DNA of 64,000 nucleotides from Eledone cirrhosa. Its lineage: Eukaryota. Below the pieces are notes generated by a model that was not told where the DNA came from, did not search any database, and worked only from the letters and a program-made list of their open reading frames with translations. Below are positions 14,385-64,000 of this stretch, piece by piece. The stretch spans positions 93,930,001-93,994,000 of the forward strand of contig OZ024742.1 in assembly GCA_964016885.1 (NCBI GenBank), read 5' to 3'. Both the position numbers and the translations under genes were made by a program. Each line of letters begins with the position of its first letter. Positions within the stretch are counted from its first letter, which is position 1.

Positions 14385-15942
14385 AAGAAGAAGTTTATGA
14401 AACGGAAATGCGGGTATAAAGAATTTATTAGGTAACAATTGTTTCTATAGTGTATACCTCGCTATTTGTATAATATAAAAATATTATCATAAATCGTAGG
14501 TACACTGTAAGAAAACACACCATATCGTCAGACCTTTGTAGTAGAATGATATGAAAATATTTTATACACTAGATATAAGAGAAAGAAGGAGGTAGGAAGG
14601 ACAGAGGAAGAGGAAGAGGGAAGCGAGTAAGGGGGAGGGAGTCTTAGGATTTAAGACTGTCAGAGTAGTAGAGATTGTAAGGAGAAAATGTTTTGGCAGC
14701 AGTTAGCTTAATGAGGCGTGTTAGGGTTGGCGGGGGAAGTAAATTCTTCTAGTGGTGTTGTTTGGACAAAATTTAGTTAAAGGGGTCAGAGTAGTACAGA
14801 ATTACAGACAAGTTATTGGGGCTATTATAGTAGCAGGTTATTTCTAAAGGGGTCCAAAAAACAGTGTTTAGTACTATTATTATAGAAAGCCATATCGTGT
14901 GTATAAACATATAAAACAGAAATTTGCAAACGGTGGTGTAAAAAGGTAACATTACATGCATTTAAAAAAGAAAAAGTCGTTTTCAAACGATGGTTACAGT
15001 AAAGTGAACGTTCAATTTTGCTGTTCAAAAGTTTGTTTTCCGATGTTAAAATGCAGTATATCTCCATATTGCATAATTTACAGAATCGATGATTTTGCAT
15101 ATATGCAGGCGCAGCTGTAATAATTTGCCAATCAAGGGAGAATGCTTGATTGTTCCTCCGAAGCTGCCAGGCTTTATCGGCGTTGTTACGGAGCGCATTT
15201 TCTCATGCCTGATCGAAGATCAATGTTGGTATAGGCGAGCTTTGAAATATGTTGCGGTACATCCGACGTAATACCATTTGTTGGTTCCGGAATTTATTGT
15301 ACATCGGTAGACAATATTGCGTGCTAGGCACTGGTTATTCAGTGGGCACGTACCTGGTTTGGTGCAGTTACAGTTATTTTTATGTTTTGCAGTAGTATCC
15401 TGGATAGTTTGGTGGGGTTGTAGTTGCGTGTTAGTGCGTTGTATGTCGCTATGCTGGTGCGCTGTGTCATTAGGGATGTACTTATTTAGTATTGTTGAGT
15501 TGAGTTTTTTTAATTAGTTGTTCTATGTTAGGTGCAGTGGAGTATGAGAGTCTAATGGTGCGCGAGTTTAAGATTTTATAGTATTTATGTGAAGTTGTAA
15601 AGTGTTTATTGATCAGTGTATAGAATTGTGAGATAATCTTAGTGCTAATAGAAATATTGTACACGGGGTTATACTATATGTACTCCCTACGTCTGACTCT
15701 ATTTGTTGGTTTGCACCTATTAGTATGCCTATTGATGTGTGTGTGTGGTGCAATACTAGTTCGACTTAGATGTGGTTTATTCATAGTACCTAAGCGGTTA
15801 TCATCTAGATATTCTATTTTCTCGCAGTAACCAGCTTTTCTAAGTGCGTCCTTATAATATTCAGCATGCTCGTTGAAGGTCTGCAAATTAGACGACAGTC
15901 GGGAGATCCTTATGGATATATTTTTAGGGATAGATTTATTAT
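14385..15942 (-). mobile_element. 5'-truncated Naiad-like PLE (RT thumb, GIY-YIG, 3' region with HHR)
   Basis: YKDALRKAGY, KHFTTSHKYYKILNSRTIRLSYS, CNCTKPGTCPLNNQC, YYVGCT, CKLCNME..LLNSKIE; frameshifted. Confidence 0.85.
14430..14535 (-). ncRNA. Type I HHR with long stem II
   Basis: aggt CTGACGA [about 79 nt] GAAA caattg TT acct; lies downstream of, and in the same sense as, the PLE ORF. Confidence 0.75.
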
Positions 15943-16172: not shown

Positions 16173-16179
16173 TATATAT

Positions 16180-16995
16180 CTTAGATAAACACTTTCCCAT
16201 ATGTCACAAATACCGCTCCATCTTTAACAGACACAGAGTAAAACTAGAGCACTCCTGCGCTAAGAATATGAAGGCCCACATCACCAACAGTCCTAAGACT
16301 GCCACCCCACGAGGATGCTCTTGCCGAAAGCCTGAAGCTTGTCCCCTTCAACAGCAATGAAACACACCCGCTATAGCTTATGAAGCTGTAGTCACTTCCA
16401 ACCGACCAATCAACCGCAGGAGGCCAAATCCTATGTGGGTATGGCGGAGGGCCGATTATAGGAACGCTTCCTGAACCATCAGTCGACCTTTAGGTACCCG
16501 GACAAACGATCAGCCACGAAACTCGCGAGCCACGTATGGTCCCTCAAGGACTCGGGTATAGACTACTCCATTCAATGGAAAGCCATCACTAAGTCCAAGA
16601 CATACGCTAGGGGCAATCCGTCTTGTGGACTGTGTATTGAAGAAAGGATAAATATTCTAAAGAGATTACGCAATAGCAATTGCCTAAATTCAATAAATGA
16701 AATCTTCTCACGTTGTCCACATGTCTGGAAACACCTCTTGCATAACTACAAAGCTTCGATTTAATAACAATAACATTCTAATTTTCTTATCAGCTCGAGC
16801 ATTTTTTTCGACTTTTGTAGTTATCTCCCTTACACCTTTCGCCCGTGGCTTTGCATCGCTTGGGTGAAGTGACCGTTTTTGCGCATATGGTTGTTCTTCC
16901 TGTTCTGTATAACCATGACCAGTACGAGCTGAAGATCCGCTAAGGTGAAACAATTGTTTTCGGTATGGTGAACTAACTGTTGTGTTACCACTTCT
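16180..16995 (+). mobile_element. 5'-truncated Naiad-like PLE (GIY-YIG + 3' region with HHR)
   Basis: LDKHFPICHKYRSIFN, CSCRKPEACP, SYVGMAE, LASHVWSLK, CGLCIEE, LNSINEIFSRCPH; contains stops and a frameshift. Confidence 0.85.
16925..16962 (+). ncRNA. Minimal type I HHR with palindromic stem III
   Basis: cgag CTGAAGA tcc gctaa ggt GAAA caattg TT ttcg. Confidence 0.85.
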
Positions 16996-35972: not shown

Positions 35973-36026
<54 letters not shown>

Positions 36027-36027
36027 C

Positions 36028-38419: not shown

Positions 38420-38477
38420 ATACTATGATCATTTCAATGACTGGGTTCCATATGAATCCGGTGATATCATCAGGTAT
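38420..38477 (-). ncRNA. Type I HHR
   Basis: atac CTGATGA [31-nt imperfect stem II] GAAA tgatca TA gtat; palindromic stem III. Confidence 0.75.
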
Positions 38478-41530: not shown

Positions 41531-42200
41531 GATTAGTGCATAAATTAGAGATTATAATGATATAATTCTAACTTGATCTTTTTTAACATGAATTGTATGT
41601 CAGTAGATTGAAAGAAAATTGCAATTTGTCTGTAACAAATCATTAAAATATATAAATAAATATTTACATTCTGAATTTTTGTCTTGACCTCATCATTTCA
41701 TAATGGTTACTAGTTATGTTATTAGCCCTTTGAATCTCTCTCTCTCTCTCTGTGTAAATATAAAGAACACCTATATATACGAATTCACCGAAGGGTAGAT
41801 CCCAGTATAGTACTCTAAAAATGACACTTCACAAGCATCTTTCCCAATGGACATATTCACAGCAGTGGCGTAACCAGCTTTCAAAGCCGGGGGGGGGGGA
41901 TCCGATCTAAAGGGGGCCCACCAATTCCATACGCTCATTTCCATCAGCTGCAAGAAAATATGTTCATACGGGCGTCTAGAATAGATAATTTATAATAGAG
42001 TAGAATACATCATAGATTACAAAGTTAGCATGTTCCGTGAACACTTTATTAACTGCAAAGACGGTGGTCTATCTTCAGAAAAAACAAAACAATATCCAGT
42101 AAAACTAGTCTTGCAATCGATTATTCACAAACAAAAATTCGTATGTGCAACAAATCGTCCATCTAAAACTTTACTTTCACATTCGAGCATATCACTTGTT

Positions 42201-44920
42201 CTACAGTTCTAATTTGCGATGTTTTACTTTAGAAAATTTTTCAATCACGATGCTGAAGTCAATTTTTCAGCCAGTTCTCGCTCTATGTACATCATTGCCA
42301 GAGCATTCAACCGCTCTTCACTCATGGTACTACGCAAATAATTCTTTATCAGTTTGAACCTGCTGAAGGTTCGCTCAGCCTGCGCCGAGCTAACCGGAAT
42401 AGTTATGAACATTTTTAATAAGGCAAACACGTTCGGATAGGCTCTATCTAAGTCATTAGAAATCATAAACGGAACGATCTCAGAACTCGATATGGATTTA
42501 TTTAAACACACTTCCTTGTAAAAATCTTTTAATGATAAATACTCATCGAAGATAGTGTCATTTTCGATGTCACCCTCGTAGAATTTCGCAAGATTATCGA
42601 TTCTCTCTTTATTGCATGTGTCGTCGTCGTCGAAGTGCGCCGGTATCAAGCACGAAAAATCCTTCACTAGACCGTGCAAGTCGGCAAAACGTTCGTTAAA
42701 GCTACTAATGATTCTATCTAGGATAGTGAAATAAACGTCCCGTTTAAAATGCTGACTCATCGTCTCATGAGGTTCGTCACTGGCATTTTCGTCATGAAAA
42801 CGCTTCTTTTTCTTTTCCGTTTTTCTGTTGTAAACTCTGGTTCAACTTGACATTGCTCGGCGAGATTTTTAGTGTCTGATAATGTTCGGTCAAAATATTC
42901 ATTTGAGCGGATTTCTTCAATTTCTTTTACTACATTTTTAATTATGACGTCCGCGGAATATAAGTCGATAGCCTCCTTCTGCAAATATTGGGAAACAGAA
43001 TGCAGCTTTTTAAGTAAATTCTGAAAAAACTTCAACATGAAAATGAATTCAAACTTGCTCACATTTAGTAGCAAACCTCTGGCCTTAGCTAATACTTTCG
43101 GAGAAGTGTTGCGAACATCCCCACTTACTATCCTCTCTAGTGCACTTATTACTGCCGGTAAGTTGTTAATGGTAGCCTCTACAGCCTGAATGTGACTAAA
43201 CCAGCGGGTATCTGAGAGTCTTTTTAATGTTAATACCGTTGAAGTCAATAGTTTTTCTTGTTCTTCTTCGAGGATTTTCAGCCTTGGCAAGCTTGATGTT
43301 AAGAAAACATACAGGCTCTCCAATGTACCAAAAAATAATTTACCATCCATTGACGATTGGCTAGCATCGATTAACACCAGGTTCAGGTTATGAGCACAAC
43401 AATGGACGTAAACAGCTTTCGAAGAGCATCCCTCTTTAACTCTAGCCTGAAGCCCAGAAATATGGCCGGACATATTCGACGCTCCGTCGTAAGCTTGTCC
43501 TCTAATATATTGAGCATCCAAGGAAAGATCCTGGAAAAGAACTTTCACAAGCGTATCGAAAAATGATTCAGCGGCTGCTGATTTTAGTTCACAAAATGAC
43601 AAGAAACGCTCCTGTGCGTGGCCACTTTTCGATACATATCGCAGTGACACAGAGCATTGATCCTGATGCGAAATGTCTATTGTGGAATCGACAATGACTG
43701 AATAGTATTTTGCTTCTTTCACTTCCGTGATTATTTGTTCAGTACATTCGTTCGCCAGGCATTCTATGAATTCGTTTTGTAATTTTGGACTTAAGTACAT
43801 AGGCTGTCTTTTAGTGCGCCCAGGCGAGAAGAAATGGCTTTCCAAGATCGTATCATACTTGGCTATCAATTTCAACAATTCAATAAAGTTTCCTTCATTT
43901 TCTGATTTGGCGCCAAGTCCAGCATATTCCCTGTGACCTCTGAAGGCCAAGCCTTGTTTTGCGAGAAATAATGTACAATCAAGCAATCGCCCCAATATCT
44001 GGCGATTTCGTTCAATTCGCTTCTTCTCTTCATGGATGAGGTTATCGATCACCGTTTTATTTGCGTCCAAACGATATTTTGTCATGAAGTATTGCTTTTG
44101 TGCATTGATGTGAATGGTACTTTTCTCATGATTGGCAATTTTTTCGATTCCCTTTTTGAAGTTTGCCATCCCACACTCTGGATTACCCCAAGTCTTCGAG
44201 TAAGATTCGGCATTTTTATCAGCAAACAGCCAACAACAAAAGCAATATAGTCTGTTGGATTCAGGAGAGTATACTAACCAGTGTCGGTCAACTTCATGGA
44301 TTCCAGCACACTTTCTCTTGTACCAACTGATGTTGAATTTTCTGTGGTTCGAGTCGAGAGGGAAATCAGCAAAATGATCTTTCAATCCTGGCTGACAAGG
44401 ACCAACGGCCATAAGGGCACGAATTAGAGGTGTCGTCAATGGTCTGTCTTCGAAATGTTTCGGGTCGCTTGGATACTTCTCTTGTAAATTCAACATGCAC
44501 TCTACTGGCTCATACTCTGGGATTTGTTTTGCCGATGTAGTTTCCTCTGAATCATTTTCATTTTCAGATTCCGATACAGCTATTTTTTCCTCTATTGAGT
44601 TTGGATCCCCATTTGGAACTATATCTTCAGTGACTACGACAGTTGTTGAGATAGTCGATGGACCTGAGGCATCTTCGACGTCAGGTTCTCGCGACTCTCC
44701 AGTGATTTTCTGTTTCTCCAGTTCATCTGACCAGACCGACTCGCCGGAAATTCCGGCAGTTACATTGGTTTGGGATGCGTCACTACTTGTTGACGAAGAC
44801 TGTTGACTTTTCAGAAAACTTGTGATTAGATGACATTTCTTTGCTGATTCTACCCATGGCAGCTTGTCTAGCATTTTTCCTCTTTGTTGATCCAGTTTTG
44901 TAACTTTTTTTAGGCAACAT
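42201..44920 (-). pseudogene. hAT transposase (TTF zinc finger, DUF4371-like region, DDE, hATC) with three 1-bp frameshifts
   Basis: YCFCCWLF, LAFRGH, VDSTID, QAYDGASNM, HCCAHNLNL, TRW, AERTFS..IKNYLRSTM; frameshifts near 44853, 42810 and 42264. Confidence 0.92.
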
Positions 44921-45045
44921 TCTTAATGAGTACTATATTGACACAGTTGGAATAATGCAATTCGCTTGATTTGATATTCAACACCGAAGAATGTAAAACA
45001 CGTCAAATAATCGACGAAAAACAAAACATAGAGCAAAAGTCCAGG

Positions 45046-45099
<54 letters not shown>

Positions 45100-45300
45100 C
45101 AGATTAATCTACCGGAGTAAACGGTAGTGTCGAATCCGTATAGAGAACCCAATGTAATCCAAATGTGGAAAAATCATAAAAAATACATGTAGTTAATTAA
45201 TAATGTAAAACAATTGGAAGACAGAGTCAAAATAAGACATTGAAAAACAATGAAAAATTAAATAAAGAACATGTTCTTCCTATTAATATTGATTTACACC

Positions 45301-45430
45301 TTAACAGACGATCGTTTCAAGGGATCAGATATTGGCATGTGTATTTTATTTAATATATATATTTTATATTTTACAAATTATACAAAGAAAATACAAGATA
45401 CCTCCATCCGCTCTCTATCGTCAGTGTTGA
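45301..45430 (-). ncRNA. Type I HHR with about 99-nt stem II, in a module (about 45100-45720) inside the hAT
   Basis: aaca CTGACGA ... GAAA cgatcg TC tgtt; GUC triplet. Confidence 0.75.
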
Positions 45431-45901
45431 ATGAAAACTAATTTTATTACAAGAATAAAAAACATATCAAAATATAAAGGAACATTGACCGATGGTATTC
45501 ATTGGCTGGTTTCTAAATCAACAAAATCCATCGGCTGAAAAGGAGATAAAAGATGAAATTCAATGGAAAGCAGTTAGAGGATGAGGAGGGGTGTTACAAT
45601 AGAGGAAGACAATTAGGTCAAAGTTCTGGACAGAATATTTAAGGACAGCAGAATGTCAGATATCAAGTTACAACTTTAGAAAGTTCATGATGAGAACGAA
45701 TATTTTATTCCAACTAAATATATATTTGTGTGTATATACTCATGCATAATTATACTTTTAATTAAATATTAGGTTAAAAAACTGCGTATCGAGAATAACA
45801 TAAGCATGTATTACAACATTTCAAACAAAAAGAATAATATAGAATTTAGATATTAAATCATTTATATATATTTACAAATCAAAGAATATAACAATCGGTT
45901 T

Positions 45902-46147
45902 TTAATGAGATCCCTGTGATTGAGGCAAGGCTACTAATTTGTCAATGTTTGGTGTCAAAGCCGTTAGAGAGAGTCGTAAACCACCTCTTCTTTCTATATC
46001 AAGGCGATTTCCACTTTTAGAAAGCAGATGCATAACCCGACTGAAACCTGACTCAACTAAATAAGATGTGGAGAAAGCAAATAAAAAGAATGTAACGCTT
46101 TTATTCGACTGAATATTCTCCACACATTTTTTAAATGCAGTTGCCAT
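45902..46147 (-). pseudogene. C-terminal fragment of a different hAT (Buster/Charlie-type) transposase
   Basis: FSTSYLVESGFS...NRLDIERRGGLRLSLT..PNIDKL...QSQGSH. Confidence 0.8.
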
Positions 46148-46559
46148 TTTATCCGAAATATTATATTCTTTAAATAAACAATTGGTCTTAACTTCTAGTC
46201 TTATTAGAGATTAAGGGTTTTCTTTAAGTTGTTGTAGTTAAGGATTCGTAATTACATGTGTAATAAGTTATATGTTTAGAATTATAGCCTAGGGGGCCCA
46301 CCTAGACCGAGAGGAAAGCCAGGGGGGGGGGTCGCCCCCCCTGCCCCCCGCTAGTTACGCTGGAGATTCACAGTCAAGCAACCTAAAAATAATAAGCCTG
46401 ACTAAAATTCCATGACCGCAGTTTCGACATATTTATGTATATCGTAATTCAGACCTGGATTTCAACTTCTCACCTTTGGACTGTGATCTTCAAATATCTT
46501 GACCAGCCACCGATCAATAGCGGATTACCTGGACTTCGGATTGCGGCAGTATTTATTAA

Positions 46560-47015: not shown

Positions 47016-47058
47016 ACGCTGTACTAGTTTCAAGCTTATTAGCTATCGTCAGCAACGT
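47016..47058 (-). ncRNA. Minimal type I HHR with an intact core
   Basis: acgttg CTGACGA t agct aata agct t GAAA ctag TA cagcgt. Confidence 0.88.
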
Positions 47059-47959: not shown

Positions 47960-50900
47960 GTTAGCTAGCCTATAGGCGCATGGTCAGAGTAGGCCCATTC
48001 ACACGAGCCATTCTCGCCACATTCATCCACCTTTTAGCAAATGTACTGGGGGGCAGCACTTCTCTCTCCACCCTCACCTTCCTTTCTAGGTGAAACTTGG
48101 AGAAGTTGATGAGGGATTGGCCGAAGAGAAAAGTGTCTGTCTTCAGTCCTTTTAATCTGGTCCACCATATAACCTATTTCGCAACTGCCACCAGACAGAG
48201 GAACATTTCCTGCTCTTCCTGACCTAAGGAAGGCGGCGAGTCGATCTTCATTATGGACTCGGCCGATAGCCGGATACGTTCCACACGCGACAGTAGCTGT
48301 TCGACATAACTCCACAAGTCAGTAATGCACGGACATTGGACAAGTGCATGCAGAACGGTTTCGTCGTTGGGCAGGTCCGTCTGACAGCACTTCCGTGCCT
48401 GTAGAGTTTATCCCGAACCGGTAGTGCTCCCCGGTAGCACTGCCAAGCGAGGGATTTCTGGAAATTGTCCATCGTCCCCGGCTCGAAAGTCCTCCGGTAC
48501 AGACTGGTCAGTTCGACTTCGTCGACGCCCAAAGTATCTCCGAGTGCGTCATCGCACTTGCCCACCACTAATCCTCTATAGAACTCTAGAGTGGAAGTTC
48601 CACTGATCTCATTACCCGCTTGGTAGAGGGAAGCGAGTGCCTGGCATCATTCCAGGTGCCAGTCACCCAGTCTCGGTCTCTTCTTGACCCAGGACTCCAG
48701 CTCAGTCAAGCAAATGAGCTGCGGAAAACGGCGACCACACCTGTTCACCGTTTAGGCAGAATATCTGGAGATGTCGCAGCCTCAACGCATGTCTGCGCAT
48801 CATTAGCCACGGCATGCCCAGCCCTCCAGTAGAGGTTGCTTGCAGCAGATGGACCGCCTCACCAACGGAACTTGTCCCCTCCACAAGAATTTGAAGAGGA
48901 AGCGTTCCAACTTGACGAGACGCGGACGGGGGCAAGGCACGACGATCAGGGGGTAGTAGATGACGGACGTGATGTACGCATTCGCCACCTCCGCGCGACC
49001 TTTCAGTGATAGCTTCCTCCCAGCCCATTTTTAGGTGAGACTGGCTGCTCTGCTCGTTACCTCGTCCCAATTCTTTTCTACCTGGAGATCTGGTCCGAAC
49101 CAAACCCCGAGCAACTTTACCGGTCCGTCCGTCCAGCGCCCCACGACGCTGTTGGACGGCATGGGCTTGCCTCTCCAGGTTCCGAGCTGCAAGCCCACCG
49201 AATTTTCCGGGTTAAGTTTGGCTCCTGTCAACCTTTCATATTCCTTCAATAACGTGCCGAGCACCTCGATTTCTGAGGTGTTCGACACCATCACGGTGTT
49301 GTCGTCCGCATAAGCCGACACCGTCTTTCCACGTCCCGGTTCGATCAGGATGCCCTGCAACAGCTCCATCTTCCGCAGTAAAGGCTCGAGAGTCAATACG
49401 TACAGAAGGGAAGAGAGAGGGCACCCTTGACGGACCGATCTGAGAGCCGAAATGGTTCCGAAAGGTGGCCATTAACCTTGACCACCGAGCGTGTGCCGCT
49501 GGGCATTGCAGCAATTCAGCTTCTGAAAACAGGGCCGAAGCCTGCTGATTTGAGGACAAACTCCATATACCGATGGTCGACCCTATCGAATGCTTTCGAT
49601 TGATCTAAATTGATCAGTGCCCCACCGAAGCCAGGTTTACACCCTACCCTCTCTATGATGTATCGCATGAGGTGGAGATTGTTGTGTATGTACCTGGCTG
49701 GGATTGCGCAAGTTTGCACCTCCCCAACCAAATCCTCTACGACAAGCGCCAATCTATTTGTTAACACCTTGGCCAAAATCTTAAACTCTGTGTTGAGCAG
49801 AGTTATTGGCCTGAAGTTGTCTAATGTATCCCTCTTGTTCTCGTCTTTCCTTATCAGCGTCTCCACTCCCCAGCTCACAGAACTGGGAATACTCCCATTC
49901 TGCTGCCAGTTGCAGTAGAGTGCTTCGAGGAGATCGGAGAACAAGTCTGGCATATTTACGTAAGCTCATAGGGCGGGCCATCCAAACCGGGTGACTTGCG
50001 CCTCATGCAGCCGACAAGGGCGTCCTGAATTTCGGCTGAAGAAATCGGCCTTTCGCAGCGCTCAGTGTCGAATGTCGAGATGCGCGCAAGCCATCAAGGT
50101 AGGGACTGAAATCTGCTACTCTCTCTGACTCGCCACTCGCCACTCTCCCCGAACAACCGAGCAAAGTGCTGGCGAAATGCCTCACACATCCGCTTGGAAT
50201 CGTTTTTCTCGTGCCCGTCTCGGTCCGCCAAAGACCGAATTGTGGTTTTATTACCACGCTGCGCCTCCGCCACGCGGGCCCATCGAAAAGCTTTGGTTCC
50301 CCCGTTTCTCAGCGCACGCGCCTTAGCTCTGACAATGCAACCTTCGTGTTTCGCATTGAAGAAATGGTCCAATGCCATTCTCGCCGCTAGCACGTCAGTT
50401 GCAATACCACTACAAATAGCCTCGTCTAACTTATCTACCAGCTCCCACTACTTTCTATTTTTCTCTAACGCTAGTTCTTTGCTGAACTCTATCGAAGTTA
50501 TTCTAATCTCTCTTTTGAGAGCCCCCCCCCCCACAATCTGTTGTTGATGATCCCCCCTGTCAACTTTTGCTTAACTAAATTGTTGACTAGGTCCCTGTAA
50601 GACTTGCATGCAGGATGACATGTTCAGCTTCCAGTAACCCGGTCCTAACCTACGCGTTTTATCTAGGTCGACCTTACATATCACAAATGTGTGACCTGAA
50701 TAGGCGAACGTTTTAAAAAGTGGGCAGCCTACACTATTTCTATCTATTTTCCTAATGAAGATCCTGTCTATATACGATCTAGATGACCCCATTCGGTTGG
50801 TCCATGTCCATACTGGCACATGGGGAAATTTAGTCGATACCTGTCAGACAGTTGGAACTGGCTGAGTAGGTGCTTGAGGCTTTTGTACCCCCCCCCCCCC

Positions 50901-51380
50901 CCGCTCCTATCGGATACTCCCACACAATCCCAGCGTGCGTCTAAGATGCCATTCCAGTCCCCCGCTAACAGTAAAGGGCGAGACGTACCCAGAAATGTCT
51001 CCAGGCGCCTAAAGAAGTCCGGTCGTCCTGCCCCTGTAGGGGCGTAGACGCCAAGCAGTCTAAAGGCACCACCTTCGCTACTGCTCACATCCAAGACCAC
51101 CAACTTACTGTCCGGGTCCCGGAAGATCGACCTTACGTCGAGATCCAGTATTTTCCTAAACAGCATTGCCACCCCACCTCCCATTCCCGGCCTGCTAACA
51201 GATGAGAAGATCTGATAGTCGTCGAAAATGGGGGCTAGTGAGCGCATGTCGGAAATTCTGGTCTCGCTGACGGCAATCACATCCATTTCCAGCGACCTGA
51301 GGTCGTTGAGCAGGCGACCCTGCTTCCAGGGTGACCCCAGGCCGCGAACATTTAAAACTTCCTACTCTTAATATGGCTAT
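47960..51380 (-). pseudogene. Tx1 ORF2 (APE endonuclease, RT, C-terminal zinc-finger region), frameshifted
   Basis: NVRGL, SET, VYAP, GDWN, SYIDR, YWKLN, NFRPITLLN, LDQSKAFDRV, AYADD. Confidence 0.9.
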
Positions 51381-53395
51381 GTTGGCAAGCTAAAAGAGAG
51401 AGGGAAGGTTTACTCACCTCCCGGGTCTTGTGAAGGTCGGGTGGTTCGACCTCCATGGTTGGTGGGGTTTCTTTTGGGAACCCCTTTAAAAGTGTCGATG
51501 TGGGTTTCACATTCGAGGTTCCCACGTCTTGAGGAAAGCTATCTCGAATTTCTTTGAAGGAATCGAGTGACATTTGGACCAGAAGCAAATCTTCTGGCAC
51601 GCAAAATGTGCTCATTTCAAAGATCTCCCCCTCTGTTTGAATGTCCTCGCTTCGTGCTAAGAGGGCCATCAGTTTATCGTATCGTTGGCCCTTCTGACAA
51701 GCACGAAGTTTTTAACATTTTGTTGATGTGGTTTTATTTGTTTTCGTTTTGATGACTGTGGTGGTGATTGTTTTGGTGGTGTTGTTTCGGGTATGTCTGT
51801 GTTTGTTGTAGGTGTGGTGTCTGCAATTTCAGGTATTTGTGTGTTTATTTGTACTTGTGTTTGTTTAGGTTGTTTGCGTTTCGGGGATTGTGGGGGTGGT
51901 GTCGATGTTGCTGTTGGTGCTGATGTTATTGGGGCAGTGTTTGCGTTAGTGGTGTCTGTATTTTTTGATGTGTATGTTTTTGTGTTTCGTTGGGGCTTTT
52001 CTTTTGGTGAGTTTTATGTTTTTTTTTGCACTTTTGGGTTTTCCTTCATCTTCGCTGCTGGAAGACAAAGGGTCTGTGACTGTGAGTGTCTCTGTGCCTG
52101 TGTGTACGTTTATTGTTTTGTCTATGTGTATAATTGGTGGGTAGGGGGAGTCGGAGAGCTTTCCTCATTTTCCCCTTGGATTGGTTTCGGTGGTGGTCCG
52201 GCTGTTTTTTATGTTGGTGTCCGTGTCATTGTTGGTGTTGTTTTTGGTGGTGGTGGTGCATCTTTCCGTGCTGACACTGGTTGGAAACAAAGGAGGTTTG
52301 CGACCCCCTGCATTTTTGCGCTGAAGGCAGAAGGCGTGCAGATGCGTTGCTTCCCCGCAGACGAAGCAGTGTGGCCTTCTTCCCTCAGTGATTAGTTGGA
52401 TTGTTGACCCGTCCTGTAGGCGAGCAAAATCCGGGATGTTGTTCATGTCCTCCGGTTTCATTTGGAGAAGAATCTCCAAATTCATGCCGGACCAGTCCTC
52501 TCTCTCTGTCATTTTGATATCCAGGAGGGTAGTGTCTGTCCCCTCCTCGATTACGCATCCCAGCAGCCACCATATGTTCATTCCTGGTGGGATGCTGGGT
52601 ATGCGGACCTTTACTGTCCTTTTCCTCTTGTAGGACGGGTGCATGATAATGCGTTCCGTTCTTCAGGGGTCACCGAGTGCTTAATAGCAAGGGCCTCGGT
52701 TTTGAACAGTACCGAGATGGTACCGAACCGTTTGGCTCTTGCTTTGTACTCTATGTCACTTCCGATGCACTCCAAAGCAGCCTCGGCCTCTGCTTGGGTG
52801 GCAAGTTCCACTTTTCGTGTCTGCACCGAAATGCATCGAAAGTACACCGTCCTCCTTTGCATGGCCGCTATTGCCCCGTCCGGGATGGTCACGTTTGCCC
52901 AGGACTTCTCCCGTTTAATTAGCCTCCACGCCTGGGCCAACTGTTCGTCTTTATCGCTAATATCAATATCCAATAAGCGCTTTGTTTTTGCTGCTGCTGC
53001 AGCAAATGTGGTGCTTCTGATGCTCTTGTTGTTGGTGTTGTCGTTCTTGCTGTTGTTATTGGCGTTGTTGTTGTTTTGTTTGTTGTTGCTATTGCCACCG
53101 CCATCCGTGTTTACATTGAAGATGTCGGTGTTATTGTCGTTGTTGCTCTGAGTTGTTGTTGTTGTTGTTGCGGCGGTGGCGGCGGTGGCGGCGGTGGTGG
53201 TGGTGATGTTGTTTTCATATGATACTGCGCTAACACAGAAGGTTGTGATGGTAGCTTTTGAGTTTTGCCTTCACATTCAGGAGAGTGGACGACAGGCATG
53301 ACTGTAGCCGTCGTAGTTGTGGTGAAATCTACAGTGGCTGCTTTTAAACTTTTGACCTGAACATTGTTTACCGTTTCAAGGTAAAAAATTTCCAT
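51352..53395 (-). pseudogene. Tx1 ORF1 with CCHC knuckle and low-complexity T/Q/P regions, frameshifted
   Basis: CFVCGEATHLHAFC. Confidence 0.8.
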
Positions 53396-53644: not shown

Positions 53645-54430
53645 TCATTATTAACCACAAGGGTTTACATAAAGTAGACATTAAGGACAGTACAGGACAA
53701 TACAGGACGGTACAAATGGGCATTTCTGCGTGTAAAAAAAACAAAAACAGGATGTAACAAAAAATAAGAATGAAAAATTCCCCAATAGGGGGGAGACTTC
53801 CGAGGGACATTTGTGGAGAAAGCCCATTAAAAGGCGACAGTGACCCTGACCACCAGGGCAAGTGCCCTCTCCAAGTTTTCCACGTTTAATTTGCAGACAC
53901 ATACTCAGAGTAGGCCCATTCACTTGGGCCATACTTGCTTCTCTCACACAACTTTCGACAAAATGCTGGGAAGAGAGCACTTCCCTCTCTACCCTGATTT
54001 TCCTTTTCAAATGAAATTTGAAAAAGTTAATCAGGGCATCACCGAAGAGGTAAGTGTTCGTCTTCAGCCCTTTCAAACGTGTCCGCCATACTATCTCTTT
54101 CGCCATGGCCACCAGACAGATAAAAACTGCCTGCCCTTCCCGGCTAACGGAAGAGGGCGGGGCAATCCTCACGATCGACTCAGCTGATAGCTGGATCCGT
54201 CCTACACGTGACAGCAGGTGTTCGACATAAACCTACAAGTCAGCAATGCTCGGACACTGGACGAGTGCGTGTAGGACGGTTTCGTCGCCCTCCGCGCATC
54301 TCGGACATGCTCGGCTGACGGTACCTCCATGCCTGTAGAGTTTATCCCGAACTGGCAAAGCTCCTCGGTAGCACTGCCAAGCCAGGGATTTCTGGAAGTT
54401 GTCCATATGCCCCGGCCCGAAAGTTCTTGC
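53641..54430 (-). mobile_element. 5'-truncated second Tx1 copy from a related subfamily
   Basis: Homologous to 47690-48490; AMAKEIVWRTRLKG..FFKFHLKRK. Confidence 0.85.
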
Positions 54431-54445
54431 GAATAATAATAATAA

Positions 54446-55125
54446 CCATAATATGACAAGGAGGAGGCTAGCTCACTGTGTAGGATGTGTGGAGAGAGAG
54501 GAGACTGTGGCTCACATTGTATCCGAGTGTAAACACCTAGACCAGACTCACTATAAAGGCTGGAGACATGATGTGATAGGCAGGGTGATCCACTGGCATC
54601 TATGCAAAGTAAACAATTTACCACATTCTGAGAAATGGTATGAGCATAAGCCAGAGTCGGTGATAGAAAACGATCTGGTGAAGGTGCTATGGGATTTTAG
54701 GATACAGACGGACAAGAAATTAGAACACAATAGGCCTGACCTTGAGGTTTTAGACAAGGAAAAAAGATCGTGCCTGATGGTAGGTGTAGCCTGTCCATTT
54801 GACACGAGAGTGCAAGAAAAGGAGAGGGAGAAAATTAACCGATACCAGGAATTGGTGGGTGGTAAAAAGGATTTGAAAACTGCCATGAAATCAAGGTTGT
54901 CTCGATTGTCATAGGAGCACTAGGTACTATCTCAAAGAGTTTCCAAGGATGGTTAAAGAAATTTAGTCCAGCCTCGCTTTTTGGAACACTTCAAAAGGCA
55001 TGCCTGCTGGGAACAGCAAGAACCCTCCGATTCGTCCTTAATATCTGAGGCTGCAGGTAGTGGCTGGATATTCCTTTCAACAAACTTTCCAGTTAAATAA
55101 CATCAATGACTGAGACCCAAAGAAC
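54446..55125 (+). mobile_element. Dong/R4-like REL LINE, 3' fragment 1
   Basis: CCHC remnant, RHD, RPDL, KEREKINRY; bounded by (TAA)n. Confidence 0.85.
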
Positions 55126-55179
<54 letters not shown>

Positions 55180-55186
55180 TATAATA

Positions 55187-55790
55187 AAGTGTAAACACCT
55201 AGCCCAGAATCATTATAAGGGCTGGAGACATGATGTGATGGGCAGGGTGATCCACTGGCACCTATGCAAAGTAAACAATTTACCACATTCTGAGAAGTGG
55301 TATGAGCATAAGCCAGAGTCGGTGATAGAAAACGATCAGGTGAAGGTGCTGTGGGATTTTAGGATACAGACGGACAAGAAACTGGAACACAATAGACCTG
55401 ACCTGGTGGTTGTGGACAAAGAAAAAAGATCGCGCCTGATTGTGGATGTGGCCTGCCCATTCGACACGAGAGTGCAAGAGAAGGAGAGGGAGAAAATTAA
55501 CCGATACCACGACTTAAAGTGGGAGGTAAAAAGGATTTGGAACTGCCATGCAGTCAAAGTGATCCCGATTGTCATAGGCGCACTAGGGACTATCTCAAAA
55601 AGTTTCCAGGGATGGTTAAAGAAAATTGGCCCCTTCACGCTTTTTGGAACGCTTCAAATGGCATGCTTGCTGGGAACAGCAAGAACCCGCCGATACGTCC
55701 TGAATATCTGAGGCTGCAGGTAGTGGCTTGATATTCATTTCAACAAACTTTCCAGTTAACTAACATCAATGACTGAGACTCAAAGAATGA
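55187..55790 (+). mobile_element. Dong/R4-like REL LINE, 3' fragment 2
   Basis: RHD..RPDLVVVD..IVDVACP..KINRY..VIGALG. Confidence 0.85.
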
Positions 55791-55799
55791 TAATAATAA

Positions 55800-55842
<43 letters not shown>

Positions 55843-58510
55843 TTTTTCTGCCTGTTTGTTTGTTTGTTTATTTATGTTCGTCTACAGCGTGATAGTGCCA
55901 CCCAAAAATCACCGGGAGTGACGAAATCACCGGAGGTGATGAAATCACCGGTGGTTATGTAACCATACATTCACCAATCCTCGATAAGAGTGTTTAAATG
56001 TCGAACCTAAACAGTTCGAATAACGGTGAAGTGGAGACTAGAATGTCATGTGACAGACTCTCACCCAGCAGGTGCTCCCTAGCTCAGCAGCAGGGACCTG
56101 GCTGTCAACCAAATGCTGCTGGTGTCGGAGGAAGAAGAAGGAAAGGGACCAGAACCAACTGGACGAAAGAATTGAATAGAACTGTTATGCAATGTTACCT
56201 GAAGAGTAACCCGAAGGTGAAAGGCTATAGGAAACGGATGCATAACATCTGGAACGAGATTGGTCTATTTAAATTAGATGAACAAAAATTGGCCGGGCAG
56301 GCTCGGGTAATAAGAACTAATGGGTGGTTAAGCGAGCTGGAACTAGAGGAAATGAGCAGAGAGATTAGGTTGGAATGGGAGAGTGGAGTATGCCAGGCAA
56401 ACGAGCCAGTGGGAAATGAAGGTGAAGAGGTTGAGAGAACGGAGGAACCATCCGAAGCAGACAATGATCTGAATGCTGAAATAAATAATACCTGGAACAA
56501 AGATACGGCCATTGAGGAGATGAATGCTGACAGGCTAGGACAAGATTTGGTTGATATCCTAAACTTAGTGGTAGATGAATTGAACAATGATAGTGGGAAA
56601 CCTATGAACCTAAGATTTGTAGACGGGAAAAAGTTAAAAGAAACAACAGCTAAGGTAAACAAAGTCATCTCATACCTTGAGGCGAGGAGCCTTCACCAGT
56701 GCAACAGCAAATACAGTGAGGAAATTACTTTGTATAAAAGCGAAAGGAAACAACAAACAAGAAAGATCAGAACCTTGGTGGAAGAAACGACTGAGTGGTC
56801 CAATCAGGGAAATGAGAAATGACATTGGAAAGCTTGAGTCCCTACTGAATGCGACACTAAAAAACATAGACACTAAAAATAGACTGGAAATAAAGTAAAA
56901 AACTAGGAGGAAAAAGCTAAATATTATCATAGAGGAACTGAAGCAACGCATTGTAGCAAAGAGTGCAAAAATTAGGCGATACGAGAGCAGAGTCAATCAG
57001 TATAGACAGAACCGCATATTTGACAACAACCAGAAGATGCTGTTTGGACAGCTTGAAGGGAAAGAAAGAGGCAACGACTTGATCCCTGAGGCGGAACAAA
57101 CTAAAACATTCTGGAGAGGAATATGGGAGCAGGATGTTAAACATAATGACCAGGCAGTGTGGATTGAGATAGTACAGAAGGAGATTAGTGAACAGGCACA
57201 CCAACAAACTAATTAGAGTATCACAGTTGAAACTCTTAATGGGCAGGCCAAAAAACTAACCAACTAGAGATCGCCAGGCCCAGATGGTGTGCAGGGGTAT
57301 TGGATTAAAAATATAACATCCCTCCACCCGAAACTGACAACCATGTTCAATGACTGCTTGATGTCAGGTGAGGTACCAAAGTGGTTGACAAAAGGTACCA
57401 CAGTTCTGATAATGAAAGACCGAATCAAGGGTAATGATGTTACCAACTATAGACCTATCACATGTCTGTCCGTAATGTGGAAACTGTTGACAAGCATTGT
57501 GTTTGAGGAAATCTACCATCACCTCCACACAAACAACTTGTTACCGGACGAACAGAAAGGATGCCGAAAGTGACTGATGGTAAGGAGCCAATGCTCAGAA
57601 CTGTACTGAAGGAGAGGACAATAGACCAGGGTATGTCCAAGGAGGAAATAACAACAAGGAGAAAGAGCAGCCTTCAGGAAAAATCCCTTCATAGTACCTT
57701 CTTTGAGAAAACTGAATTCAGAGATCCACAGACATGGAACTGGTTGAAAAGAGGAGACCTTAAAAAGGCTACAGAAGGAATGCTAATGGCTGCGCAAGAG
57801 CAGGCCCTCAAAACGAAGTGGTTGAAACACCATATCTACAAGGAGGAGGCTAGCCCACTGTGCAGGATCTGTGGAGAGAGAGAGGAGATTGTGGCTCACA
57901 TTGTATCCGAGTGTAAACACCTAGCCCAGACCCACTATAAGGGCTGGAGACATGATGTGATGGGTAGGGTGATCCACTGGCACCTATGCAAAGTAAACAA
58001 TTTACCACATTCTGAGAAGTGGTATGAGCATAAGCCAGAGTCGGTGATAGAAAACGATAAGGTGAAGGTGCTGTGGGATTTTAGGATACAGACGGACAAG
58101 AAACTGGAACACAATAGACCTGACCTGGTGGATGTGGACAAAGAAAAAAGATCGTGCCTGATTGTGGATGTGGTCTGCCCATTCGACACGAGAGTGCAAG
58201 AGAAGGAGAGGGAGAAAATTAACCGATACCAGGATTTAAAGTGGGAGGTAAAAAGGATTTGGAACTGCCATGAAGTCAAAGTGTTCCCGATTGTCATAGG
58301 CGCACTAGGTACTATCTCAAAAAGTTTCCAGGGATGGTTAAAGAAAATTGGCCCCTTCACGCTTTTTGGAACGCTTCAAAGGCATGCTTGCTGGGAACAG
58401 CAAGAACCCTCCGATACGTCCTGAATATCTGAGGCTGCAGGTAGTGGCTTGATATTCATTTCAACAAACTTTCCAGTTAACTAACATCAATGACTGAGAC
58501 TCAAAGAATG
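55843..58510 (+). mobile_element. Dong/R4-like element with both ends but a deleted RT core
   Basis: 5'UTR, N-terminus (WTKELN..GYRKRM), SPGPDG, NYRPITCL, EQKGCRK joined directly to the post-RT region at about 57570; CRICGEREEIVAHIVSEC; REL domain. Confidence 0.88.
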
Positions 58511-59274: not shown

Positions 59275-60760
59275 CTAGCATTCTGGATATAGAAATGGTT
59301 TATAATTTCTGTATGTTGTGTTGATTCTATGCACGCAATTCGGGCATCGTTCAGAGGGTTTGTTCAGGATGGGGCCCTTAGCCAATTCTATTTCGTAGCT
59401 CTCGGTGGTGCATAATCTACAGCACATATGTCCGTCCATGTACGAGTGTGCCTGCTGGAGTAACCTCCATCGCAGAGTAAAAGGAATATATTTCTTCTTT
59501 AGGTACCATATATGGGTGGTGAGTGCCATTTGGTTGGCCTTGTCTGGTCCTCTGATAATGTAGGTATGGGCGTATAACCGGGTCTTGAATTTGTTCGGTG
59601 TCATACTAATATGTGTTTCTTTTGGTGTGTTATGTAACGACATCGGATTTGTATACGATGCCGATCATCAAGCATTTATTGTCAAGTGAGGATTTGTCAC
59701 TCTTTGGGCAGTTCCACAGTTGCTCTCTCTTGCTGTGGGCTCTGGAAGTTGGGGACTTGTTCATTTTAGATACATCCAGGTTGGCTATGTTCTTGGCTAA
59801 GGTAGGTGTGGTTGAGTAAGAGAGCCTAATTGTGTTCTTATTGAGGATTATGTAGTATTTATGCTGTGTGGGAAAGTGCTCTTTTAGTAATCTGAAAAGG
59901 ATCTTAGCTACTGGCATGGACACTGCACCGTTAAAGGAAGGATAGAACCAGTTAATCTGTCTATACCTATTACTGTTAGGGGATCTGGGAGTGCTGTATA
60001 TGTAAGTAATTTTATGCTGCATGTTATGTCCTCGTTATAGTAGGGATTGGATCCTCTAAAAATGTATATTCCTAACTAGTTTATTTTCTATGTTTGTTGG
60101 CTGGTTTGAGCATATTTTTATGTATTTTAGGGATTCGCTTAGTTTGTGGTAGGGGTGGTAGAGGGAGGTGACTAAATCTCAAGTAACATCAAGGAAGTTT
60201 GCCCTAGTTATGTTTGACTCTGTTTTTATCTTCAAATCCAGATAACTAAATAGAGTGTGGAGGTTCTTCCTGAACCCAAAGTAATTCTAGGGTTAAATCT
60301 GTGCAAAACAAAAAGACAGTCGTCGTGATATAATCCTCTGGTAATTCCCCTGAACAGTTTCTTTAGATTTTGTAGGATGTATTGCCCCACAGGTTCACTA
60401 ATCTCCACCGAGTCGCTCACTCCCATACTAACATTGAAGTGGGGTGTTAGATTTCTTATTGATCCAGTAAGATCGTTCATGGTGCAGGAATGTTTTTTGT
60501 ACATGGAGGATCGCATCGTTCTCCTCGTCGGAAATTATGGTAAGTGTCTTAGCGAAAGACAGCGCATCCTGAAGCAGGGGCTCGATGATACCGACGTAAT
60601 ATTCTTCTAGATTGAGTTGTAGGAAACGGGTGTTGCACTTATCTGGAATATTCTGGAACCATATTATGACATTAGATGTTTTAGGAGTGGTGAGGCTCCT
60701 CGGACGATTGGAATGATCATGTCGAGGATCTTTTAATGATGGATCCAATATCTGAACATG
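59275..60760 (-). mobile_element. Degenerate Naiad-like PLE (RT + GIY-YIG)
   Basis: VIIWFQNIPDK, FNVSMGVSDSVEISEPVGQYIL, GLYHDD, EHFPTQHKYYIILNKNTIRLSYS, CRLCTTE..ILNKPSE..CVH. Confidence 0.85.
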
Positions 60761-61276
60761 TTGGCCTCATGAGCCGAACTGAGTGCTTTCTATGAAAGCT
60801 CAGGTTGTGGTTCTTGAGGGTGAAGTACGAAGGGTTTCGTCCGCTTGTCGATGTTCATATGTCATTAGTCTTCCTCCTCTTGAGCTTCTTCTTCTTCTTC
60901 TTTTTCTTCTTCTTCTTCCTGATCTTCATTTCTTGGTTCTTCTTTCTCTTCTTCTCCTTCGTCTTATTTTCCCCCTTGCTCTCCATCCCCGTCTTCCCTC
61001 TCCTCCCACACCCCATTTACTAAGTGACATTTCTCCTTTTCTCCTCTTCTCTTCTTCCCATCTACTACTATCGCCACCACCACCACCAGATACCTATATT
61101 ATTGGAGAGAATCTCCCCCCTCCCCAACTACCACAGGACAGACTCCTATATATAACTACAACTCATCAATTTTACCTGATATTCCTAATGATTTCATACG
61201 AATGAAACAGCTCTATTCGAGTTGCATAATTTCAACATATATATATATATATATATTCCTTTTGAATAATTTCGAC

Positions 61277-62394: not shown

Positions 62395-62482
62395 TTGTGT
62401 CTGTGTGTATATATATATATATATATAAATTAATAAAAACAATGAAATAAACACAAAGAACATGTTCTTTATATTAAACAAA

Positions 62483-62618
62483 TCATCATTTTACGATCGT
62501 TTCTGGGATGTATATGTGTGTTGGTATGTATATCATATAGATCTATGTAAAAATATTACAAATTATCAGAGGAAATATACATACCTTCACATATACATGC
62601 CGTCCTCAGAAATGATGA
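62483..62618 (-). ncRNA. Type I HHR with about 100-nt stem II
   Basis: Inverted copy of 63749-63884 with an intact core. Confidence 0.85.
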
Positions 62619-63325
62619 GAAGTGTTTATTGAAAGAAACAAAGAATTAATATAAAGGGTCTGTTTGGGAACAGGTTTTGAATTGACCAATAGAAAAGGAG
62701 TTAGAAGTCAAGTTGATAGAATGACGGTAGTAGAAATTAAATCTAGGGGTATAGGAGTGCAGACTTATGCTTTGAATGAAAAGAATACTATCGAGATGAA
62801 ATGAGGTCAAGTCAAGAAGATAGTGAAGGGTACACGAAAGTTTGATGTTATTAAATAATATTGTTAAAAACGAAGGAAAATAAAATTTTAGGGTAATAAA
62901 AGATAAATATATGGAAAATATATTTATCTTTTATTTTTATTGCTTTAATTTCTTACTTCTTTATTTATCACATTCATATGAATTAATATAATTTTATCCC
63001 TGTAAGTATACCTATAAATTAATTTAAGTTCCTGTTATGTATTTAGATTTCTTGTAGTTTAAATAAAATTTGTATTTCTCACTAATACCCCTATCCCCAA
63101 ATTTTATTTTCCTTCGTTTTAACACCATTCTTTAATAACATCAAGTTTTTATTTATCACATTCATATGAAATAATATAACTTTATCCCTGTAAGTAAACG
63201 TATCAATTAATTTAATTTCTTGTTATATATCTAGATCCCTTGTGGGTTAAATAAGATAGGTATTTCTCACTAATACCCTTGCCCTAAAATTTTATTTTCC
63301 TTCGTTTTTAACAATATTATTTAAT

Positions 63326-63507
63326 GTGGATTGGCAGTATCTGTAGAGCGTCGGACGCCATGCTTTGCCGCATAGAGTTACGGCCCTTGCCATTCTGAGT
63401 TCAAATCCCTCCGAGGTTAACTTTGCCTTTCATCCTTACGGGGTCGATAAAATAAAGTACCAATAATGCACTGGGTAGTTGCTGGCCTTGTGCCAAAAGT
63501 TGAAACA
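63326..63507 (+). mobile_element. Full-length SINE with 10-bp TSD attatttaat
   Basis: TSD at 63316-63325 and 63508-63517; empty site in the left arm near 62850. Confidence 0.93.
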
Positions 63508-63748
63508 ATTATTTAATAACATCAAACTTTCGTGTACCCTTCACTATCTTCTTGACTTGACATCATTTCATCTCCATAGTATTCTGTTCATTCAAAGCAT
63601 AAGTCTGCACTCCTATACCCCTAGATTTATTTCTACTACAGTCATTCTATCAACTTGACCTCTAACTCCTTTTCTATGGGTCAATTCGAAACTTGTTCCC
63701 AAACAGACCCTTTATATTAATTCTTTGTTTTTTTTCAATAAACACATC

Positions 63749-63884
63749 TCATCATTTCTGAGGACGGCATGTATATGTGAAGGTATATATATTACCTCTG
63801 ATAATTTGTAATATTTTTACATAGATCTATATGATATACATACCAACACACATATACATCCCAGAAACGATCGTAAAATGATGA
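63749..63884 (+). ncRNA. Type I HHR with about 100-nt stem II
   Basis: tcatcattt CTGAGGA cggc atgtatatgtg...cacatatacat ccca GAAA cgatcg TA aaatgatga; 9-bp stem I. Confidence 0.85.
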
Positions 63885-64000
63885 TTTTTTTAATATAAAG
63901 AACTTGTTCTTTGTGTTTATTTCATTGTTTTTATTAATTTATCTTGACTCTGCTTTCCTATGATTTTTATCGTAAATGTTTGAATGCATCTTCTCTTTTC

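What the first reader, a model, noticed from the sequence alone, without database searches (positions are those of the whole stretch)
62483..63884. Hammerheads with giant (about 80-100 nt) stem II in at least three families
Seen: intact cores with CTGANGA and GAAA separated by about 100 nt (62483-62618, 63749-63884, 45301-45430) or about 79 nt (14430-14535). The 63.7-kb copy has an 11-bp basal helix atgtatatgtg/cacatatacat and a 9-bp stem I. Known: minimal PLE HHRs normally have a very short stem II, and typical descriptors limit loop length. Inference: this is an expanded-stem-II class that standard searches would probably miss. The insert could bind the RT or supply tertiary contacts.
Basis: partly seen in the sequence, partly recalled or inferred. 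Interest (0 to 1): 0.8.

Follow-up and report, generated by a model that had tools for sequence, protein, structure and literature searches.

The report
Long-armed hammerhead ribozymes in Penelope retroelements
Hammerhead RNA motifs at the tail ends of Penelope-like jumping genes in this likely octopus genome carry an unusually long folded arm (80-116 bases, too long for the published search pattern) in about 19,000 copies, and they are predicted, not shown, to cut RNA in pairs.

Summary
Four type I hammerhead motifs have 79-99 nt between CUGANGA and GAAA; 40 shuffles give none. They lie in the 3' pseudo-LTR of Hydra-clade Penelope-like elements. Three exact genome patterns give about 19,000 matches with 70-131 nt spacers against 24 control matches. 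The insert is a long hairpin whose base pairs across 11 sequence groups (80% of cells, 34-45% in controls), with compensatory changes.

Corrections: the 62.5 and 63.7 kb copies are two arms of one inverted insertion. The 45.3 kb copy is a related fragment carried inside a hAT transposon. The 79-nt copy is a deletion variant of a 90-nt family. 'Giant' is the tail of a continuum: 3 of 60 motifs in 1 Mb, while 41 of 60 exceed the 26-nt limit of the published descriptor. Rfam misses the short motifs too.

Cleavage, expression and RT binding are untested. No printed case above about 54 nt was found, but two key papers were unavailable. Verdict: a real new variant of a known ribozyme kind; the insert's function beyond holding the core together is unshown.

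The parts
63749..63884 (+). Type I hammerhead, family A: stem I 63749-63757/63876-63884, CUGAGGA 63758-63764, 99-nt stem II insert 63765-63863, GAA 63864-63866, palindromic stem III 63867-63874, predicted cleavage after A63875
63765..63863 (+). Stem II insert: rod of C.A mismatch, 2 bp, C.C mismatch, 11 bp, internal loop, about 12 bp, and a terminal hairpin; -29.8 kcal/mol, z -5.1
   Evidence: compensatory variants 63766/63862 and 63771/63857
62483..62618 (-). Same hammerhead in the inverted arm of the same insertion
62425..62859 (-). Inverted, truncated copy of the element's 3' end (typical PLE inverted-repeat insertion)
   Evidence: (I2, I9, I16)
62918..64000 (+). 5'-truncated 3' UTR/pseudo-LTR of a Hydra-clade PLE (family A), with a duplicated unit of about 180-190 bp; ends about 78 nt beyond the window at (TC)n(TA)n; no ORF left in this copy
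63326..63513 (.). Unrelated dispersed repeat of about 185 bp inserted in the UTR (SINE-like; the label is recalled, not tested)
   Evidence: (I4, I8, I11, I14)
45303..45428 (-). Hammerhead with 99-nt spacer (family B), on a Hydra A-group 3' fragment of about 45045-45437
41861..46365 (-). hAT DNA transposon that carries the family B fragment about 380 nt upstream of its transposase frame (42757-44922)
14430..14535 (-). Hammerhead with 79-nt spacer (family C, 90 nt in other copies)
14828..15883 (-). Broken 3' part of the family C Hydra ORF (RT thumb, Cys linker, GIY-YIG-type endonuclease), about 430 nt upstream of the hammerhead
16925..16962 (+). Short hammerhead (11-nt spacer) behind another Hydra-type endonuclease remnant; internal comparison
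47016..47058 (-). Short hammerhead (14-nt spacer); internal comparison
38420..38477 (-). Intermediate hammerhead (31-nt spacer); internal comparison

Best explanation
These are type I hammerhead motifs in the 3' pseudo-LTR of Hydra-clade Penelope-like retrotransposons whose stem II has grown into an 80-116 nt hairpin, and they are predicted to self-cleave only as a double hammerhead, with the long arm likely serving as a self-folding clamp that holds the two core strands together. Shown: sequence, position in the element, copy number, pairing and compensatory change in the arm. Inferred: transcription of tandem copies; pairing of two palindromic stem III strands to form two active sites; slow or protein-assisted cleavage after GUH, as in other PLE hammerheads; lengthening tolerated because these motifs lack the usual loop I-loop II contact, with selection on pairing and not on length or sequence. 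Reverse transcription likely uses uncut RNA, because genomic copies run 40-200 nt past the cleavage site.
For: Hydra ORF linkage: family C lies at both ends of an ORF with RWK, DKT and CxCx5C motifs in L091; family A UTR is continuous with such an ORF in L141 and about 20 other loci; motifs match the clade definition (PMC8557442 section 11). Basal helix: positions 2-8 paired in 80% of cells in 48 representatives of 11 groups, against 34-40% slid and 45% permuted; one per group 83% vs 46%, 0 of 5000 permutations. Stem I first three pairs 46, 42, 44 of 48, against stem I of 3 bp or more in 4 of 121 chance metagenome matches. Distal arm of one group: 93% paired, 7 pairs with two-sided change, 0 of 500 shuffles for cells. 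Common variants in run contigs, not chosen by the core: none in the 11 invariant core positions, stem I or stem III; one at N7; two compensatory pairs. Double-hammerhead fold is about 9 kcal/mol below two monomers for family A and 12 for the 116-nt subfamily. Lengths form a continuum and inserts of different groups do not align. Two 3' termini per family, both past the cleavage site, as for Poseidon (PMC11167929).
Against: No cleavage, expression or binding data; no RNA run was available. The first stem II position is a mismatch in 36 of 48 representatives, where G10.1-C11.1 is the consensus (PMC4209133), although U.U is common in published Hydra motifs (14 of 26 rows by hand count). The monomer MFE pairs the core strands into an inactive rod, and the free dimer MFE is still 3-5 kcal/mol below the double hammerhead for A and C. 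For the window's B and C copies the double hammerhead is less stable than two monomers. Within families the core is only slightly better kept than flanks: 2/297 vs 67/2802 (P 0.06) and 2/319 vs 42/3027 (P 0.43), pooled P 0.02. 12 of 18 Hydra endonuclease remnants found by protein in 1 Mb had no detectable hammerhead within 1.6 kb. Conserved unpaired motifs inside the arm are more than a pure clamp needs.
Confidence: 0.6

Rival explanations
1. The arm is a functional module: it would bind the element's own RT-endonuclease protein or dock on stem I, and so gate cleavage or package the RNA.
For: Distal helices covary. Short motifs are kept within groups, such as UGAUAnUUUGUA and UACAUAGAUC in the A group. 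A basal helix, internal loop and distal hairpin recur from 48 to 116 nt. The Poseidon hammerhead cleaves only with its protein (PMC11167929). The 116-nt subfamily is the most abundant form seen.
Against: No sequence is shared by all groups; length varies 11-116 nt among Hydra lineages and published Hydra elements do with 12-26 nt. Copy ends map downstream of the ribozyme. In Poseidon the required RNA region lies in the first 172 nt of the ORF, and core mutants transpose normally in vitro.
Confidence: 0.2
2. The arm hides splice signals of a pseudo-LTR intron (or DNA promoter motifs), so that splicing would remove part of the ribozyme from the mRNA while unspliced RNA is copied.
For: One group has a conserved branch-like UAAC, a pyrimidine tract and YAG 12-13 nt before GAAA (scored 12 or more in 10 of 12 representatives); the A group keeps GUAUGU and UACAUAG 42-54 nt apart. 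The D. virilis Penelope intron ends at helix I (PMC4209133).
Against: Across groups acceptors are not enriched: 5 of 11 vs 3.2 shuffled, P 0.18; donors are as frequent on the opposite strand, 15 vs 15. These motifs are also paired in the hairpins. A 42-nt intron with 19 nt from donor to branch would be very short (own knowledge).
Confidence: 0.1
3. The motifs are catalytically dead or nearly so; the fold is kept as an RNA structure for another step, such as template folding, and most genomic copies are inert.
For: Mismatch at the base of stem II and an inactive monomer fold. PLE min-HHRs cleave weakly in vitro, and no cleaved ends were seen in anole RNA-seq. Inverted-arm insertions like this one would trap the motif in a duplex of about 430 bp.
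Against: Core, palindrome and stem I show no common variants in run contigs while N7 does. The cleavage-site base is A, C or U in the group representatives (not filtered there). Related short PLE motifs cleave as dimers (PMC4209133; review PMC6765202).
Confidence: 0.1

Closest known systems
Hammerheads of Hydra-clade PLEs (Craig et al. 2021, PMC8557442, File S2; includes Hydra-1_Obim of Octopus bimaculoides)
   Same: Type I topology, 3' pseudo-LTR position, near-palindromic stem III, an unpaired base on each side of the stem II base, (TA)n insertion sites, ORF with RWK, DKT and CxCx5C.
   Different: Published spacers are 12-26 nt in 26 rows (hand count); here 77-116 nt with several helices, branched in some groups, and about 19,000 pattern matches.
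Minimal PLE hammerheads, min-HHR (Cervera and de la Pena 2014, PMC4209133)
   Same: CUGANGA/GAAA core, palindromic helix III that implies dimer cleavage, extra base after A9, motifs in opposite orientation 100-700 bp apart.
   Different: Descriptor allows at most 26 nt in stem II and a 2-nt stem III loop; G10.1-C11.1 consensus is replaced by a mismatch followed by a long helix; stem III palindrome is 8 nt.
PLE-X1_sMoe and PLE-X1_sTam hammerheads (PMC8557442 File S2, marked as deviating) and Naiad 'HHR_half_core' cases
   Same: PLE hammerheads with enlarged loop 2: about 54 and 47 nt between core strands (hand count); half cores 35-50 nt apart.
   Different: About half the length, single families in spike mosses or unvalidated half cores, no covariation shown in the passages read.
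Discontinuous Clec2 hammerhead of mammals (as reviewed in PMC6155905)
   Same: A natural hammerhead that tolerates a large insertion (150-1500 nt) in one helix.
   Different: Type III, insertion in helix I, single-copy host 3' UTR, experimentally active.
Poseidon (PAc) hammerhead of Anolis (Frangione et al. 2024, PMC11167929)
   Same: PLE hammerhead upstream of two RT start sites that define the 'tail'.
   Different: Short stem II that overlaps the start codon; tested in vitro and found protein-assisted.

Membership tests
Hammerhead ribozyme, type I | Core C3-A9 (CUGANGA), G12-A15.1 (GAAA), U16.1 and H17 | tested here: met
   no common variant at these positions in run contigs, only at N7
Hammerhead ribozyme, type I | Three helices around the core, helix I open | tested here: met
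   stem I 4-9 bp, basal stem II covaries across 11 groups, stem III palindrome
Hammerhead ribozyme, type I | Base pair 10.1-11.1 next to the core (G-C consensus) | tested here: inconclusive
   first position unpaired in 36 of 48; can be read as extra N10 and N11, which the min-HHR descriptor allows
Hammerhead ribozyme, type I | Self-cleavage after NUH | not testable with these tools
   no RNA run listed; needs in vitro assay
Hammerhead ribozyme, type I | Loop I-loop II tertiary contact of fast natural hammerheads | not tested
   stem II ends 40-55 nt from the core; an internal loop could substitute; no pseudoknot search was run
Rfam hammerhead families | Match to an Rfam covariance model | tested here: not met
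   no hammerhead family at E<=1 in the window or E<=10 in 62400-64000; short motifs are missed as well
Minimal dimeric PLE hammerhead (min-HHR) | Palindromic, unstable helix III | tested here: met
   ACGAUCGU, ACAAUUGU; double-hammerhead fold favoured over monomers for family A
Minimal dimeric PLE hammerhead (min-HHR) | Located in the pseudo-LTR of a PLE | tested here: met
   L091 has the motif at both ends of the ORF; L141, L095, L146, L156 behind the ORF
Minimal dimeric PLE hammerhead (min-HHR) | Stem II 3-7 bp with 3-10 nt loop (published descriptor) | tested here: not met
   77-116 nt against a 26-nt limit
Hydra-clade PLE | RWK and DKT motifs in the RT region | tested here: met
   family C frame in L091 has RRIRWKAF and KADKT; for family A the N-terminal part was not held, so shown only by homology of the rest
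Hydra-clade PLE | CxCx5C linker and C-terminal GIY-YIG-type endonuclease | tested here: met
   CNCTKPGTC in family C, CNCRNKRNC in family A, followed by YxG endonuclease frames; Pfam gave no hit for these Hydra fragments
Hydra-clade PLE | Insertion into (TA)n | tested here: met
   microsatellite follows 115 of 119 A-type and 44 of 47 C-type motifs within 400 nt, at two preferred distances
Hydra-clade PLE | Phylogenetic placement with published Hydra proteins | not tested
   only read side by side with Hydra-1_Obim; the tree holds genome copies alone
Non-LTR retrozymes | Head-to-tail 170-400 nt repeats without ORF, canonical short stem II | tested here: not met
   inverted arms and ORF-linked UTR

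The most novel reading that the evidence does not exclude
Cephalopod Penelope-like elements have repeatedly turned stem II of their hammerhead into a structured 80-116 nt domain that binds the element's own protein or gates splicing, making tens of thousands of protein-switched ribozymes that current catalogues miss, and pointing to a similar hidden set in other animal genomes.
Probability: 0.2. Interest if true: 0.75.

Novelty: new variant of a known kind. Interest (0 to 1): 0.5.

Why it matters
Published hammerhead counts in animal genomes depend on descriptors that cap stem II at about 26 nt. Here 41 of 60 motifs in an arbitrary megabase exceed that cap, so the ribozyme content of such genomes is undercounted, and statements that a PLE family lacks a hammerhead may need a wider search. 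The natural length series (11-116 nt) inside one PLE clade gives a ready panel for asking what PLE hammerheads do, which is still open. It does not by itself show new chemistry: engineered hammerheads tolerate stem II insertions (own knowledge).

Tried and rejected
Rfam scans: no hammerhead hit, only microsatellite hairpin artefacts. RNA evidence: no RNA holder listed; three contig runs of one sample, kind not on record, showed no joint at the candidate GT..AG and cannot test splicing or cleavage. Mini-intron idea: not enriched across groups. L142 first looked like a family A 5' pseudo-LTR before an ORF, but that ORF starts at a microsatellite and ends in its own short hammerhead-like motif, so it is a nested other family and was dropped. 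Poseidon-type frames next to family A or B motifs (L030, L098, L013, L034) were not counted as linkage, because they are not part of the UTR homology. RNAalifold on MAFFT alignments with flanks failed for two of three groups because of misalignment; an alignment-free anchored test replaced it, leaving out 2 of 50 representatives (L215, L219) that were short motifs with a chance upstream core. An intact family A ORF could not be fetched, so full-length frames of 706-834 aa are known only from the search table. The endonuclease tree has an unresolved backbone and no root, so gain and loss of long arms cannot be told apart; L206 is mislabelled noHHR there (its spacer is 83 nt). Earlier-findings searches by sequence, by place and by the full word set gave nothing.

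Full report
Observation. A script scan for CUGANGA, a spacer of up to 250 nt, GAAA, a palindromic stem III and a closing stem I finds 7 motifs in the window, 4 with spacers of 79-99 nt at the stated coordinates; 40 dinucleotide shuffles give none. The 63.7 kb motif has a 9-bp stem I, core CUGAGGA at 63758-63764, a 99-nt insert, stem III ACGAUCGU and cleavage triplet GUA. The insert folds as one rod (-29.8 kcal/mol, z -5.1); inserts of the 45.3 and 14.4 kb motifs fold less well (z -2.9 and -2.0). The host is an AT-rich animal genome of 3.0 Gb; I infer an octopus from size, microsatellite load and the likeness of its PLE proteins to Hydra-1_Obim. That is inference, not a tool result.

What the copies are. 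The motifs at 62.5 and 63.7 kb are two arms of one inverted repeat, a known PLE insertion structure (PMC8557442). The forward arm is a 5'-truncated 3' UTR that ends just outside the window at (TC)n(TA)n. In L141 and about 20 other loci the same UTR is continuous with an RT-endonuclease frame. Family C lies 430 nt behind an endonuclease remnant in the window, and in L091 it flanks a whole, frameshifted ORF at both ends. These proteins have RWK, DKT and CxCx5C, the marks of the Hydra clade; Pfam gave no hit for them. Family B is not a third PLE family here: its segment is 70-80% identical to the A-group 3' end and lies inside a 4.5-kb hAT transposon, whose copies match over the whole length at 96-97% in 7 of 7 long loci tested. 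Other family C copies have 90 nt, so 79 is a deletion in this copy.

How common. Exact genome-wide patterns: stem III ACGATCGT with spacer 5-35 nt, 124 matches (control 9); 70-100 nt, 2,292 (5); 101-131 nt, 10,777 (13); stem III ACAATTGT with 70-100 nt, 5,986 (6). The 36-69 nt range and other palindromes were not counted genome-wide, and a few matches are short motifs with a chance upstream core. In five arbitrary 200-kb blocks there are 60 motifs: 10 of 20 nt or less, 31 of 21-40, 16 of 41-69, 3 of 70-131; reversed and shuffled controls give 0. Two of those three long ones belong to one family and the third may be chance. So long arms are abundant in number but are the tail of a continuum.

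Is the arm under selection? From 188 distinct long motifs I took 50 representatives below 90% identity and dropped 2 false ones, leaving 48 in 11 groups. Anchored on the core, stem II positions 2-8 pair in 80% of cells, against 34-40% when slid and 45% when arms are permuted; with one representative per group 83% vs 46%, 0 of 5000 permutations. Within groups P was 0.001, 0.08 and 0.009. Position 1 is unpaired in 36 of 48 (C.A 13, U.U 11). In one branched group, 30 named pairs are 93% paired with two-sided change at 7, five of them in a distal hairpin (the structure was derived from these sequences, which favours it). In contigs of three runs of one sample, common variants in 63749-63884 fall at N7, at two compensatory pairs (63766/63862, 63771/63857), at one position where the window copy has a private change, at five loop or weakly paired positions and at one paired position; none hits the core, stem I or stem III. 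Against this: core sets found by pattern are conserved by construction; among copies found by DNA similarity the core is only slightly better kept than flanks (pooled 4/616 vs 109/5829, P 0.02; neither family alone is significant), as expected if inserted copies decay neutrally; and 12 of 18 Hydra endonuclease remnants found by protein had no detectable motif within 1.6 kb.

Evolution. On a tree of 52 endonuclease fragments, arms of 77 nt or more occur on four separate branches, with 20-, 30-, 36- and 61-nt motifs on others. The backbone is open and unrooted, and single links rest on proximity, which nesting in (TA)n can mislead. Inserts of different groups do not align, which fits repeated growth or fast turnover. 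A 49-52 nt family was seen once upstream of a Poseidon-like RT (L098), so growth may not be confined to Hydra.

Mechanism. The palindromic stem III points to the double-hammerhead mode described for PLE motifs (PMC4209133). For family A the double-hammerhead fold is about 9 kcal/mol below two monomer MFE folds and 3-4 above the free dimer MFE; the monomer MFE pairs the core strands into an inactive rod. Copies end at two preferred distances past the cleavage site, about 60-70 and 190-200 nt in A and 40-50 and 150-160 nt in C. This matches the two RT start sites of Poseidon and means that uncut RNA is copied (PMC11167929). The window's own insertion has its two motifs on opposite strands and no ORF, so it is most likely inert. 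I rate the clamp model 0.6, a protein-binding or docking module 0.2, hidden splice or promoter signals 0.1 (one group has a striking acceptor-like motif, but no enrichment overall), and dead ribozymes 0.1.

Comparison with print. The example min-HHR descriptor allows 26 nt at most in stem II. Published Hydra motifs have 12-26 nt; the longest PLE case I found is about 54 nt, in PLE-X1_sMoe, and Naiad half cores lie 35-50 nt apart (hand counts). A giant squid annotation lists 235 Rfam hammerheads (PMC6962438). Seven full-text searches found no report of 80-116 nt stem II in PLE hammerheads. What I saw: PMC4209133, main text parts 1-2 of 4, passages, supplement parts 1-2 of 3 and the descriptor passage; PMC8557442, passages, section 11, supplement parts 1-2 and passages; PMC11167929, section 3 whole; bioRxiv 10.64898/2026.07.22.740005, part 1 of 5, supplements closed; PMC7229834, PMC3088659, PMC6765202, PMC6155905, PMC13725137 and PMC6962438, passages only. 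Lunse et al. 2017 and Arkhipova et al. 2017 (relaxed descriptors with longer loops) were not held and may contain precedent, so novelty is provisional.

Verdict. Real, abundant, structurally conserved and apparently unreported at this length: a new variant of the PLE hammerhead, not a new class. Activity and the role of the arm are untested. Interest 0.5.

Noticed in passing
window 41861-46365 (-); L092, L096, L101-L105: A hAT transposon family (at least 7 full-length copies, some with a 909-aa frame) carries the long-arm hammerhead in sense orientation about 340-380 nt upstream of its transposase frame; trans cleavage would cut the transposase leader.
   Followed up: partly
five 200-kb blocks L231-L330: About 60 hammerhead motifs per Mb, which would be of the order of 10^5 in this genome if the blocks are typical; most abundant are 26-36 nt and 49-52 nt families, some with an (AU)4 palindrome as stem III.
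   Followed up: partly
L129, L144, L148, L153 and related loci: A branched long-arm group has a conserved branch-like UAAC, pyrimidine tract and YAG just before GAAA, a candidate splice acceptor inside the ribozyme.
   Followed up: partly
G000 C5:96881983, C4:377437574: Open frames of up to 834 aa in the family A group suggest intact, possibly active Hydra elements.
   Followed up: no
L165:1500, L167, L164: Natural deletion variants of long-arm families keep core and basal helix with 12-19 nt spacers; single copies, useful as controls.
   Followed up: no
L333:301-406 (-): One AT-rich metagenome match has the same C.A base and a 7-bp basal helix with an 88-nt spacer, but no adjacent stem I; a weak hint of the form outside this genome.
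   Followed up: partly
window 59275-60824 (-), 16166-16764 (+), 5333-6783 (-): Further PLE remnants: two Hydra-type and one Poseidon-like.
   Followed up: partly
L001:2248-2863 (-), L094:447-1586 (-), just beyond the window: Three head-to-tail repeats of about 530 bp, each with a 51-nt-spacer hammerhead, an arrangement that could form cis dimers.
   Followed up: no
window 35889-37640 (+), 48251-53270 (-), 54372-58424 (+): Long frames that look like non-LTR retrotransposon remnants (labels from reading the translations, not searched).
   Followed up: no
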